Assembly (NCBI GenBank): GCA_051645425.1
Contig: JBOFBH010000012.1
Coordinates: 35,472-99,471 of the forward strand
Direction: 5' to 3'
Source of the DNA: Actinomycetota bacterium
Lineage (GTDB): Bacteria > Actinomycetota > Actinomycetes > Actinomycetales > Angustibacteraceae
Length of the DNA: 64,000 nucleotides
Shown: one piece after another, positions 47,383 through 51,051 of the stretch
How the letters are laid out: every line of letters begins with the position of its first letter
How positions within the stretch are numbered: position 1 is the stretch's first letter
Notes under the pieces: generated by a model
Databases searched by the model: none
The model's input: only the letters and a program-made list of their open reading frames with translations
What the model was told of the DNA's origin: nothing
Position numbers and translations under genes: made by a program

Positions 47383-49014
47383 CTAAGCGGCGGCAAGTAT
47401 GCGGGCTCTGGCCAAATGTGCTCGCTTGCTAGAGCCCGCCGTTTGGTGCGTGTGGTGCTTAGGAAATGTCGAGTTCCTCATGTGGGGGACTTTGATGGTG
47501 CGAGCACCGGGTTCGCCACCAAGGATCACTTTGCGACGTGACTCGTTGTTCGCAGTGTTGATTTCGATCAGGTTCTTCACTGGGTTGGCGAGCACCTGAA
47601 CGTAGTACGTGCCGTTTGGTAAATCGGTGACATCAAACGATTGACCAGGCAAATACTGGCTGTAGGTGTCACCCCAACCGGACGGCAACACTTCCCGTAG
47701 ACCCATCGAGTTGGGGCTGCCGCAGGCACTGGACAACCCAGTTGAGTCGGTTTGCCATTCGGCACCGGGGACGCTGAGGTCAACGGAGTCGGTTGGCACC
47801 AGGCAGAAGGATTCCTTCTCGCTGCGCACTACCTTTTTACCGTCCGAACCCAACAACTGGTACGTCGCGAAGTCTGTGAAATACCAGTGAGTGTGCCCTG
47901 GGCGTGGGTCATAAGCCAGTGTTCCCCGGTCTACTGAACTGACCTTCTTTCCTTGCTGATCGAAGAAGACCTGGTGGGCGGACATCTCCGAGGCACCGGG
48001 ATCACGGAAACCGTCCACGACTAACGGCCCCGGGCCGGCATTCCATACTGTGGCACCGAACGCGAGGTACTGATGGCCGTCTTCACCACCGTTTTGCTCA
48101 GAACTAGTGAGCTCAAAACCGAAGGCTGGCAACGACCGTAGATCAGGTTGCACATTCTTTGGCACGGACGGCTTCGGCGCTGGCGAAGCGGAGAGACTCT
48201 GAGTGCGTTGTTCCTGCGAGCCCTCTTCATCACGAGCGTGCTCTTCCCCTGGGCCGTGGCTGTGATTCTCCTCGGTGACAGTCGAGGCGCCACCTAAATC
48301 GGTTAAGTTAAGGCGTCCGGGGTGACGCCTGGAGCAGACCGCACACCACCAGCCGCGAATGGCCCTTCCTTAGTTGGAGCGAAACCATCAACGTGCCCAG
48401 CTTCACGAGCCCGAGCAAGTGAATCCGGCAGTTCAAGCCCCGATTTACTGGCCTTCCCTGGGGTGCTGATTCGGCTTAACGCTTCGCCTTCTGGGACTGG
48501 CGCATCTTGGTCTGTGGCTCGGATGACCTTCAGCGGAAACTTGGCGGTCACATCTTTGGTGGACAATTTCAGGGCGGATCGCCACGCTGGCGTAATTTCC
48601 ACCTGAACGTTATAGGTGCCAACCGCGAGGTTCGGCAGTTCCACGTATTCCCCGATTGGCATCGCCCATCCACGTTGAAGGCCCATCACCGTGCCAAGGG
48701 GTGACCTGCCGCCGGGAACCACTGGTGGCAACAACTTCCGCCTTAACTGGATCTTTGTAACTGGCGCGCTTCGCCCGAATTTCCAACGGGCTGGACATTC
48801 CGACGCTGAGATATGCGCCCAAGTCCCCGTAAAGCCCGTCGTTGCTGTACTTCTCGATCACCGCTGGATTGGTTGCGACTACCACCTTGAGCGAAAGCCC
48901 CGGTAGGGCACCGTCCGCCACTTGGGCGCCCGCGGTGGCACTCCCTGCCACTAGAAAAGGAGTGATTGAAGCGGCCACCCAAGGCCGTCGCGACTTCCAC
49001 TGCTGAGATTTCAC
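47383..49014 (-). pseudogene. Secreted lysyl-oxidase-like protein, reading frame broken twice
   Basis: Three consecutive same-strand ORFs in different frames. ORF 48610..49014 has the signal peptide MKSQQWKSRRPWVAASITPFLVAGSATAGA. ORF 48303..48734 is the middle piece. ORF 47383..48165 is the LOX catalytic-domain homologue (GHTHWYF.., KESFCL, GWGDTYSQYLPGQSFDVTDLPNGTYYVQVLANP...NN). Confidence 0.55.
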
Positions 49015-49104
49015 TGTCTCTCCTCTCCCGGTACAGCCACTTGAGAAACTTGCAACTCATACCCCCACTGATGCGGCGAAAACCACCAAAGGTTGCATGA
49101 GGGA

Positions 49105-49157: not shown

Positions 49158-50387
49158 TCAGGATTCGACTGTTAATCCCAGCCCTGATTTAAGAGCCGAG
49201 TCAGGCAATTCGCTGATTCCTTTCTTGATCTTTTCCTTCTGCTCTTCCGTGAGTTCCCTTCCTTCCAAAAGCATTACGAAACCAGTAGGCGTCACTGGAA
49301 GCTCCAATTCCTTAAGAAGTGCGGTCAGCGTCGGGCTCGTTTTAATCTCTTGAGTACTCGGGATCAAGTCGCTCTGCAAGGCCCCGCCCTCTGCACTCAA
49401 GGGGGCTGTGACGTCAGGCACGTTTCCAAATTTTGTCACGTCCATCACTAGCTGGATTTGACCAGCTGTAACCGCTTCACGACCCGAAAAGGACGTATCA
49501 CCTTCACGAGAGGGGGACTCTCCAGAGATTGCGTCGTTCATGATGACGACCCGACGAATCAGATTCGCGTCATCAACCCAAATTTCCGTCGTCGGTTTCA
49601 CGCCCAAATTTTCTAGCCCTACGTAGAAACCCCCGGCGTCTGTTGCGAGGTAGCCGCCCACGAGATAGAGAATTGCATCTGTCACTTCAATGTCAATGGA
49701 ATAGCGCTCAGCTGTGGAGCCGTCAGGAAGCTTGGCGGAGCTAAGAAATTGAGTTCCTACCCCTTTTAATGATTCAAAAAAATCTGCGGCGATGAGTTCA
49801 TTTTCAGGAACTTCGTCCGGTCCGTGCCATTTTTTCTCGGACGGGTCGTAGAGATAAAATTCTTTATTTCCGATGGCGATGGCTTGGACGGCTTCCGGTT
49901 TAGCTTCCGCTTCCGAGTTATTGGTGACAGCCATGTCTTTGCCGTCCCAACGCACAGTGTCTGTTGACAGAACTTTTCCCTTATTCATGACCGTGCTGGT
50001 CCAAGCAAAGCCGTCGCTGGCCGCGGCTACGGTGGTCGTGACCGCGTCTTGGAAGGCAGCCGGGCCAGTGGCTGGTGGGCCTTCGGATAGCCACATGGTC
50101 GCGCCGATCCCTACTGCGCCAACACAGGCGGCAGCGGCTAGGGGGGTCCAGAATGTGCGGCGGCGGCTCTTCGGGGCCCGAACAGGTGTCATTGACGTGA
50201 CCTCACCGAGGTCAGTGGTGGAATCGGGGGTTTGGGTAGTAACCATGGTGATCTCCTCCATTAAGACGGGCGGAAAACCGCGCGGGTGGGGCAGGGGTAA
50301 AGACTTCGGGTCAATGGGGTTCGCGGCACGGAGGATGGCGTCAACGTTGATCGCCTCATTTCGTGGCCCCTTGGCTTGATGCTTCAT
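49158..50387 (-). CDS. Single-pass membrane protein in anti-sigma position
   Basis: ATG 50387 overlaps the sigma stop (ATGA). It has about 100 cytoplasmic aa, the TM WTPLAAAACVGAVGIGATMWL, and a roughly 300-aa extracytoplasmic domain I could not assign to a family. Confidence 0.6.
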   Translation of the reverse strand: MKHQAKGPRNEAINVDAILRAANPIDPKSLPLPHPRGFPPVLMEEITMVTTQTPDSTTDLGEVTSMTPVRAPKSRRRTFWTPLAAAACVGAVGIGATMWLSEGPPATGPAAFQDAVTTTVAAASDGFAWTSTVMNKGKVLSTDTVRWDGKDMAVTNNSEAEAKPEAVQAIAIGNKEFYLYDPSEKKWHGPDEVPENELIAADFFESLKGVGTQFLSSAKLPDGSTAERYSIDIEVTDAILYLVGGYLATDAGGFYVGLENLGVKPTTEIWVDDANLIRRVVIMNDAISGESPSREGDTSFSGREAVTAGQIQLVMDVTKFGNVPDVTAPLSAEGGALQSDLIPSTQEIKTSPTLTALLKELELPVTPTGFVMLLEGRELTEEQKEKIKKGISELPDSALKSGLGLTVES

Positions 50388-51051
50388 GACGACCTCCTCA
50401 TGGACGTAGCGGATGGTGCTGTGTGGAGCGCGCGAGCAAAGCGTTGCCGGGCGCGGCTCGCCCGGATCGCGACCGCGTTCACCGAGCAGTCCAACACGAC
50501 CGCCGCTTCGGCGTGGCTGAGTTCCTCCCAGGTAAGTAACCGAAGGATTTCCTGATCGTCCGGGCGCAACGTCGCCAAAACTTGCCGCACTAGATCTGAG
50601 TCGCACTGGGCACTCTCGCTACCCAGCACGGTGTGGTCACTGACCATGCTCAACGGGACAGTGCGGTCCCAGGCGACTCGCTCGGTGACTTGCCGGCGCC
50701 GCTGCTCGCTGCGGTGTTCACAGCGGAAACCCGGTGTCGGGCCACCCCGTACAACCACGCGAGTTCGTTGACGTCGGAGGGGATCTCCGTCCGGCGGCGC
50801 CACGCGATGGTGAACACTTCACCCACGAGCTCCTCGGCGTCCTCTCGGGTGAGCCGGCGCAATGCGAACGCCAACACCTGCCGGGAATGGGCGACGAACA
50901 ACTCCTGAATCCACCGCTCATCCCGGATTGGACCGCTATGCACCACCACCCGACCCTCCGACGCAACAGAAGGTTGCGCTGGATCGGCGGTGATGTCACC
51001 AGACCTGCTGGAGAACACCCAGCCTCCTTGTTTCTGAAGTAGCACGTTCAC
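50384..51051 (-). pseudogene. ECF (sigma-70 group 4) sigma factor split by a frameshift
   Basis: Region 2 (ELFVAHSRQVLAFALRRL...AEELVGEVFTIAWRR...LYGVARHRV) is in ORF 50650..51051. Region 4 (LRPDDQEILRLLTWEELSHAEAAVVLDCSVNAVAIRASRAR) is in ORF 50384..50803, another frame. The switch is near 50700-50745. Confidence 0.65.

What the first reader, a model, noticed from the sequence alone, without database searches (positions are those of the whole stretch)
47383..49014. Bacterial lysyl-oxidase-like secreted protein, split over three reading frames and carrying HxHxY in place of the HxHxH copper motif
The 3' ORF aligns by eye with the animal LOX catalytic domain:
- QPDL...LAFGATVWNAGPGPL matches LPDL...RFPQRVKNQGTSDF.
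- GHTHWYFTDFATYQLL matches CHQHYHSMDEFSHYDLL.
- EKESFCL matches HKASFCL (the LTQ lysine).
- GWGDTYSQYLPGQSFDVTDLPNGTYYVQVLANP...NN matches [33 protein letters not shown]...NN (the LTQ tyrosine).

LOX homologues are sporadic in prokaryotes. Here the third copper-ligand His is Tyr.

The gene is readable only by changing frame twice, near 48640-48780 and near 48300-48345. The signal peptide, middle region and catalytic domain each lie in a different frame. This is either a decaying pseudogene, a sequencing artefact, or, much less likely, recoding.
Basis: partly seen in the sequence, partly recalled or inferred. Interest (0 to 1): 0.6.

Follow-up and report, generated by a model that had tools for sequence, protein, structure and literature searches.

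The report
Decayed bacterial lysyl-oxidase-family gene
This is a recently broken copy (pseudogene) of a secreted copper amine oxidase gene that is common in actinobacteria, so the find is ordinary, although the same small genome keeps two intact sister copies that have lost every catalytic residue.

Summary
On the minus strand, 49014-47383 carries a lysyl-oxidase-family gene (PF01186, E 6e-11; human LOXL2 structure 5ZE3, E 3e-5) that cannot be read in one frame. Its copper motif reads H-x-H-x-Y.

- The N-terminal and catalytic ORFs share one frame. Only the middle part is shifted.
- The first junction is a 218-bp deletion at about 48698. It removes about 73 codons from the core of the N-terminal beta-sandwich domain, including 9 conserved residues.
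- The second junction is a 1-nt loss in the linker (48315-48298).
- A third lesion went unnoticed: a 1-nt loss in a C5 run (47488-47484). It moves the ancestral tail and stop codon (47461-47459) out of frame.

The closest relatives are all single intact ORFs of 565-569 aa: a same-genus genome and two tandem paralogues in the same genome. The third histidine is present in 119 of 120 family members.

A survey of 97 conserved genes (100 kb, 272 homopolymer runs) found no other frame break.

Verdict: a genuine, recent pseudogene of a known family. The neighbouring ECF sigma factor is also frameshifted. Interest is low. The two intact paralogues with dead active sites are the more interesting by-product.

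The parts
49018..49029 (-). Shine-Dalgarno-like GGGAGAGGAGAG. The AGGAG core lies 5 nt upstream of the GTG start.
   Evidence: Read directly from the sequence.
48697..49014 (-). Segment 1, in the frame of the start codon. GTG start, signal-peptide-like N-terminus (KSRRPWVAASITPFLVAGSATAGA) and the first strands of the N-terminal domain, ending ...SGSRRQVTP.
   Evidence: Aligns to residues 1-110 of the intact relatives. The signal peptide is judged by inspection only.
48695..48700 (-). Lesion 1: junction of a 218-bp deletion (3n+2) relative to all three intact relatives. It removes about 73 codons, equivalent to P0001 residues about 111-183.
   Evidence: DNA alignment and tblastn. Nine conserved positions are lost: L111, F125, G135, C146, R159, Y170, P171, C174, P178. 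In the model these are strands E122-132, E137-145 and E157-159.
48303..48698 (-). Segment 2, shifted by +1. It holds the rest of the N-terminal domain (GTVMGLQRGW...PAWRSALKL...) and the start of the linker. It ends at TAA 48305-48303.
   Evidence: 54-56% identical to the relatives in this frame only.
48298..48315 (-). Lesion 2: loss of 1 nt in the variable linker. It returns the reading to the start-codon frame, because 218+1 = 219 = 3x73.
   Evidence...SAPGVTPDA is in frame +1 and DLGGASTVTEENH is in frame 0, and both match relatives. Position known to about 15 nt.
48193..48249 (-). In-frame 57-nt insertion in the low-complexity linker (GEEHARDEEGSQEQRTQSL).
   Evidence: Absent from G001 and from both paralogues.
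47489..48300 (-). Segment 3, in the start-codon frame: linker plus the LOX catalytic domain.
   Evidence: PF01186 E 6.3e-11. 5ZE3 E 3e-5. 76% identical to the G001 catalytic domain, dN/dS 0.07.
47881..47895 (-). Copper motif CAC ACT CAC TGG TAT = H-T-H-W-Y. The third ligand histidine is Tyr (47883-47881).
   Evidence: H at this column in 119 of 120 family members. Invariant in the 50-sequence alignment.
47815..47817 (-). LTQ lysine codon (AAG), retained.
47662..47664 (-). LTQ tyrosine codon (TAC), retained.
47484..47488 (-). Lesion 3: 1-nt loss in a C run (C5 here; CCCCCC or CCGCC in relatives).
47459..47488 (-). Ancestral C-terminal tail PPHEELDIS plus the ancestral TAA stop (47461-47459), now in the third frame.
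   Evidence: Aligns with VPPHEGLNIP-stop of paralogue 6 and VPPYQGLDIP-stop of G001.
47383..47487 (-). Out-of-frame read-through tail of the 260-aa ORF (HMRNSTFPKHH...ILAAA-stop). Not ancestral coding sequence.
50384..51051 (-). Neighbouring ECF sigma factor, also frameshifted at about 50745-50735. Region 2 and region 4 lie in different frames. The anti-sigma-like gene 49158-50606 is intact.
   Evidence: Pfam PF04542 on 50650-51051 and PF08281 on 50384-50803. Frames read. NCBIfam gave only weak anti-sigma hits for 49158-50606.

Best explanation
The locus is a genuine, recently inactivated pseudogene of an actinobacterial 'lysyl oxidase family protein'.

The intact form is a secreted protein of about 570 aa with three parts: a signal peptide, an N-terminal beta-sandwich domain of about 200 aa, a disordered linker, and a C-terminal Cu/LTQ amine-oxidase domain.

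The window copy carries four kinds of damage:
- A 218-bp deletion that guts the N-terminal domain and shifts the frame.
- Two single-base losses.
- His to Tyr at the third copper ligand.

No full-length product can be made, and the locus should have no enzymatic function.

Shown: homology, the lesions, intactness of the relatives, near-invariance of the histidine, and rarity of frame breaks elsewhere in the assembly.

Inferred: that the lesions exist in the organism's DNA, since reads were not available; that the gene is not expressed as a useful product; and that the loss belongs to genome reduction in this lineage (2.15 Mb against 3.2-4.8 Mb in relatives).
For: 1. Homology. PF01186 E 6.3e-11. 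LOXL2 5ZE3 E 3e-5 with the catalytic residues aligned. 196 homologues, most named lysyl oxidase family protein. The AlphaFold model of the intact same-genus homologue has LOXL2 as its top fold match (E 6e-9, prob 1.0).

2. All close relatives are single ORFs. G001 has 569 aa, and the own-genome paralogues have 569 and 565 aa.

3. The lesions are located by DNA and protein alignment.

4. The deletion removes 9 of 94 conserved columns and three core strands.

5. H429Y falls at a column that is His in 119 of 120 homologues and 141 of 148 cluster representatives have the full HHH/K/Y set.

6. Errors are rare in this assembly. None of 97 conserved genes shows a frame break when compared with a same-family genome. 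These cover 100,470 aligned nt and 272 homopolymer runs of 5 nt or more. The same method does flag the LOX gene.

7. Inactivation is recent. The terminal branch is short (0.17). Only 3 substitutions fall at conserved columns. dN/dS against G001 is 0.07 in the catalytic domain.

8. The adjacent ECF sigma gene is broken too.
Against:
- No independent assembly of the same organism was found.
- One of the three indels lies in a C5 homopolymer, a classic site for sequencing errors.
- 218+1 = 219, so the catalytic domain is back in the start-codon frame. This has a 1-in-3 chance of being coincidence but could hint at selection. However, the start-codon frame hits a stop at 48612-48610, so no read-through product exists.
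Confidence: 0.88

Rival explanations
1. Assembly or sequencing artefact: the organism's gene is intact and the breaks were introduced by read errors or misassembly.
For: Reads could not be checked. Lesion 3 lies in a C5 run. The genome is a draft in 13 contigs.
Against: - A 218-bp deletion and a His-to-Tyr substitution are not error types typical of sequencing.
- None of 97 conserved genes (100 kb, 272 homopolymer runs of 5 nt or more) shows a frame break. Three 1-nt indels within 2.5 kb, counting the sigma gene, are therefore far above any background error rate.
- The paralogues are only about 60-65% identical, too divergent to be collapsed by an assembler.
Confidence: 0.06
2. A remnant is still used: the 260-aa catalytic-domain ORF (GTG 48165) or the N-terminal fragment is expressed as a stand-alone protein with a new, possibly non-catalytic role.
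For: The catalytic ORF is open for 260 codons and keeps the LTQ Lys and Tyr and almost all structural residues. The same genome tolerates catalytically dead LOX-like proteins.
Against: - The product would lack the signal peptide and the N-terminal domain.
- It lacks one copper ligand.
- It ends in about 33 residues of out-of-frame sequence.
- No recognisable ribosome-binding context was examined or found for GTG 48165.
- No relative has this short architecture as a close homologue.
Confidence: 0.04
3. Programmed recoding: ribosomal frameshifting at the junctions yields a full-length protein.
For: The frames overlap, so shifting is geometrically possible.
Against: - It would need three shifts of mixed sign in one gene, with no slippery heptamer or stop-codon-stimulated site at the junctions.
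- Recoding cannot restore the 73 deleted codons.
- All relatives are in a single frame.
Confidence: 0.01

Closest known systems
Actinobacterial 'lysyl oxidase family protein' (Pfam PF01186), e.g. P0001 from an 'Angustibacter sp.' MAG and many Streptomyces, Actinoplanes and Kineosporia proteins
   Same: Same architecture by descent: signal peptide, beta-sandwich N-domain, linker, LOX domain. 76% identity to P0001 in the catalytic domain. LTQ Lys and Tyr and the first two copper histidines are kept.
   Different: Broken by a 218-bp deletion and two 1-nt losses. The third copper His is Tyr. There is an extra 19-codon linker insertion.
Human LOXL2 catalytic domain (PDB 5ZE3) and animal LOX/LOXL
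   Same: Homologous catalytic domain. The HxHxH, K and Y positions align. The intact relative's model matches 5ZE3.
   Different: About 20% identity. There are no SRCR domains; the accessory domain is a bacterial beta-sandwich instead. Bacterial LOX lack the first 'talon' histidine of the animal enzymes (PMC4448552). The window copy is non-functional.
Haloterrigena turkmenica LOX (PMC6452851), the characterised prokaryotic LOX
   Same: A prokaryotic PF01186 protein with a signal peptide. It shows that prokaryotic members can be active Cu-dependent amine oxidases whose native role is cryptic.
   Different: That enzyme is intact and active after refolding. The window gene is not intact.
The two tandem paralogues in the same genome (G000:C12, about 152989-154698 and about 154815-156512)
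   Same: Sister clade of the window copy (100/99 support). Same length and architecture.
   Different: Intact ORFs with the active site dismantled: the HxH is deleted, the third His is Asn, the LTQ Lys is Gln, and in one copy the LTQ Tyr is His. They are nevertheless under purifying selection (dN/dS 0.13-0.17).

Membership tests
Lysyl oxidase family (PF01186), by homology | Significant match to the LOX catalytic-domain profile | tested here: met
   E 6.3e-11, 42.7 bits against a cut-off of 20.4. The genome-wide search finds the same place. 5ZE3 E 3e-5.
Lysyl oxidase family (PF01186), by homology | LOX fold | tested here: inconclusive
   Tested only on the intact same-genus homologue. Its model has pLDDT 80 and LOXL2 as top Foldseek hit, E 6e-9. 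The window product itself was not folded.
Functional LOX enzyme | Three copper-ligand histidines (HxHxH) | tested here: not met
   H-T-H-W-Y. The third His is Tyr at 47883-47881.
Functional LOX enzyme | LTQ precursor lysine and tyrosine | tested here: met
   K at 47817-47815 and Y at 47664-47662, aligned to LOXL2 K and Y.
Functional LOX enzyme | Uninterrupted ORF from signal peptide through catalytic domain | tested here: not met
   Three frame changes and a 73-codon deletion.
Functional LOX enzyme | Cu-dependent, BAPN-sensitive amine oxidase activity | not testable with these tools
   Needs biochemistry.
Pseudogene | Frame-disrupting lesions relative to intact close homologues | tested here: met
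Pseudogene | Lesions present in the organism's DNA, not only in the assembly | not testable with these tools
Indirect support: 0 of 97 conserved genes broken.
Programmed ribosomal frameshifting | Slippery site or stimulator at the junction, conserved in relatives | tested here: not met
   No slippery motif at the junctions. Relatives are in a single frame.

The most novel reading that the evidence does not exclude
In this reduced-genome actinobacterium the LOX family has been converted to a non-catalytic role. After a duplication, one branch lost the copper histidines and the LTQ lysine, then duplicated again. It has since been kept as two intact secreted proteins under purifying selection. 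The last catalytically equipped copy, the window gene, has now been discarded. That would be a natural case of a bacterial LOX-fold pseudoenzyme replacing the enzyme.
Probability: 0.45. Interest if true: 0.4.

Novelty: new member of a known kind. Interest (0 to 1): 0.15.

Why it matters
In itself it matters little. It is one more pseudogene of a well-populated, already annotated bacterial family, and the unusual HxHxY motif is best read as decay, not as a new copper site. Annotators should not treat the 260-aa ORF as a variant LOX enzyme.

The context has modest value. All three LOX-family copies in this small genome lack a complete active site. Two of them look like selected pseudoenzymes. 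That could help in asking what the non-catalytic parts of bacterial LOX proteins do, since the native function of bacterial LOX is still unknown (PMC4448552, PMC6452851).

Tried and rejected
- Independent assemblies: an exact-product look-up found nothing. The JGI metagenome scan found only distant relatives, at most 55% identity.
- Synteny with the same-genus genome: its LOX gene sits at a contig end, and its neighbours map to other contigs of this genome. Orthology therefore rests on the tree, not on gene order.
- ECF sigma/anti-sigma plus LOX as a conserved module: not supported. LOX genes in Kineosporia and Streptomyces have unrelated neighbours.
- NCBIfam has no model for the family.
- The first pass of the frame-break survey gave 13 false candidates. 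These came from off-frame ORFs of the high-GC reference genome. After filtering by codon-position GC, the remaining candidates proved to be intact genes.
- 'Lower-GC block': the pseudogene's GC (58.2%) equals the genome mean (58.1%).
- Recoding and a stand-alone catalytic ORF were considered and rejected, as set out under the rival explanations.

Full report
**What is in the sequence**

On the minus strand, the ORF listing gives three consecutive ORFs: 48610-49014 (134 aa), 48303-48734 (143 aa) and 47383-48165 (260 aa).

A three-frame translation shows that the first and third ORFs share a frame. Only the middle ORF is offset, by +1. The claim of 'three different frames' is therefore not correct.

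A good Shine-Dalgarno sequence (AGGAG, 5 nt) precedes the GTG at 49014. The N-terminus (KSRRPWVAASITPFLVAGSATAGA) looks like a signal peptide by inspection.

**Identity**

- The 260-aa product matches Pfam PF01186 (Lysyl_oxidase) at E 6.3e-11, 42.7 bits against a cut-off of 20.4.
- It matches the only solved LOX-family structure, human LOXL2 5ZE3, at E 3e-5.
- In that HMMER alignment H-t-H-w-Y lies over H-r-H-y-H, sEKeSFCL over gHKaSFCL, and GwgDtY over GcwDmY.
- The third copper-ligand histidine is Tyr (TAT, 47883-47881). The LTQ lysine and tyrosine are retained.

**Relatives**

The window lies in a 2.15-Mb, 13-contig genome that is 99.45% complete. The only other genome in the same genus, named 'Angustibacter sp.' MAG by NCBI for protein P0001, carries an intact 569-aa homologue with HTHWH.

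The window's own genome holds two more copies in tandem, about 70 kb outside the window on the same contig. They are intact ORFs of 569 and 565 aa.

The wider family is large:
- 196 hits with the word-based search, mostly named 'lysyl oxidase family protein' in Streptomyces, Actinoplanes and Kineosporia.
- 1642 clusters at 50% identity with E<=1e-3 in the exhaustive search.

Within the GTDB family of this organism it is patchy. Only this genus, 1 of 7, has it. Published surveys already describe LOX in Actinobacteria and other bacteria, with the three histidines, Lys and Tyr conserved (PMC4448552). One prokaryotic member has been shown to be an active Cu-dependent, BAPN-sensitive amine oxidase (PMC6452851).

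**The lesions**

These were located by tblastn of the intact relatives against the locus, a four-way DNA alignment and coordinate checks.

1. At about 48698 the window copy lacks 218 bp that are present in all three relatives.
   - This removes about 73 codons and shifts the frame.
   - The missing stretch holds 9 of the family's 94 conserved columns, including both conserved cysteines.
   - In an AlphaFold model of the intact homologue (pLDDT 80), it holds three core strands of the N-terminal beta-sandwich domain.
2. Within 48315-48298, in the variable linker, 1 nt is missing.
   - This returns the reading to the start-codon frame, because 218+1 = 219.
   - It does not rescue a product. The start-codon frame runs into a stop at 48612-48610, and the conserved middle part is readable only in the +1 frame.
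3. In a C5 run at 47488-47484, 1 nt is missing.
   - The ancestral tail PPHEELDIS and its TAA (47461-47459) now lie in the third frame.
   - The 260-aa ORF reads on through about 33 unrelated codons.
4. An in-frame 57-nt insertion lies in the linker (about 48249-48193).

**The His-to-Tyr change**

- Among 120 homologues the column is His in 119. The exceptions are the window copy (Tyr) and this genome's two paralogues (Asn).
- Among 148 cluster representatives, 141 have the full HHH/K/Y set.
- In a 50-sequence alignment H429 is invariant.
- Combined with the frame breaks, HxHxY is best read as a sign of relaxed constraint, or as one of the inactivating hits. It is not a new kind of copper site.

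**Real or artefact?**

No independent assembly was found.

As a substitute I took 400 kb from a complete same-family genome. I extracted its ORFs and compared them with this genome by tblastn.

- A first pass was polluted by off-frame ORFs of the high-GC reference.
- After filtering on codon-position GC, 97 genes with good homologues remained. They cover 100,470 aligned nt and contain 272 homopolymer runs of 5 nt or more.
- None has a frame break.
- The same criteria flag the LOX gene.

The assembly is therefore not prone to frameshifts. Three 1-nt indels within 2.5 kb (two in LOX, one in the neighbouring sigma factor), plus a 218-bp deletion and a loss-of-function substitution, are not plausibly errors.

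**Timing and history**

A maximum-likelihood tree places the copies as (G001, (window copy, (paralogue 5, paralogue 6))) with 100/99 and 100/100 support. The three copies of this genome therefore arose by duplication within the lineage.

The window copy looks recently inactivated:
- It has the shortest terminal branch (0.17).
- It has only three substitutions at conserved columns.
- Its dN/dS against G001 is 0.07 in the catalytic domain.

**Context**

The next gene upstream on the same strand (49158-50606) is an intact anti-sigma-like membrane protein with only weak NCBIfam hits. Before it lies an ECF sigma factor with region 2 (50650-51051) and region 4 (50384-50803) in different frames.

LOX genes in Kineosporia and Streptomyces have unrelated neighbours. 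I therefore do not claim a conserved sigma-LOX module, only that two adjacent genes are decaying.

The genome is much smaller than its relatives (2.15 Mb against 3.2-4.8 Mb). It is also much lower in GC than the same-genus homologue's gene (58% against 72.5%). Both fit a lineage that is losing genes.

**By-product: the two tandem paralogues**

- Both share a 2-codon deletion that removes the HxH, Asn at the third His, and Gln at the LTQ lysine. One has His at the LTQ tyrosine.
- These shared states indicate that the active site was lost before the two copies duplicated.
- Since then they have accumulated 559 differences over 1689 aligned nt with no stop codon and no out-of-frame indel. dN/dS is 0.17 overall and 0.13 in the former catalytic domain.
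- Their changes at conserved columns concentrate on active-site residues, while structural residues are kept.
- This pattern fits a pseudoenzyme under selection.
- Degenerate active sites occur in about 5% of the family's cluster representatives, so this is not unique.

**Verdict**

The finding is an ordinary pseudogene of a known family and is of low interest.

Noticed in passing
Own genome, outside the window: G000:C12 about 152989-154698 and about 154815-156512 (loci L005, L006, L008:6990-10513): Two tandem, intact LOX-family paralogues (569 and 565 aa) with the active site dismantled: the HxH is deleted, the third His is Asn, the LTQ Lys is Gln, and one copy has His at the LTQ Tyr. They are under purifying selection (dN/dS 0.13-0.17, dS about 1.6) and form the sister clade of the window pseudogene. 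Candidate LOX-fold pseudoenzymes.
   Followed up: partly
window 50384-51051 (-): An ECF sigma factor split by a frameshift near 50745-50735. Sigma70_r2 and Sigma70_r4_2 lie in different frames. The downstream anti-sigma-like gene (49158-50606) is intact.
   Followed up: partly
L008:3995-6613 (G000:C12 about 149995-152613), just upstream of the dead paralogues: A GNAT acetyltransferase, a nicotianamine-synthase-family gene (PF03059, E 7.5e-54) and an amidohydrolase sit next to the LOX-like pair. This may be a metallophore-type cluster beside former copper proteins.
   Followed up: no
Whole genome G000: The genome is 2.15 Mb at 99.45% completeness and 58% GC. Same-family relatives are 3.2-4.8 Mb, and the same-genus LOX gene has 72.5% GC (GC3 0.92). 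This suggests strong genome reduction and a GC decline in this lineage.
   Followed up: no
Proteins P0223, P0261; P0142, P0147, P0155, P0268 (cluster representatives): About 5% of LOX-family cluster representatives have degenerate active sites. Two clusters have Tyr in place of the first copper histidine (GYNHWHF, GYDRWHF). Others lack the Lys or Tyr as well.
   Followed up: no
Model mc1fb156afc5b of P0001, residues 45-245: The conserved N-terminal domain of this actinobacterial LOX subfamily has no Pfam model. It is predicted with high confidence as a beta-sandwich, with only weak fold matches (CARDB or Ig-like).
   Followed up: no
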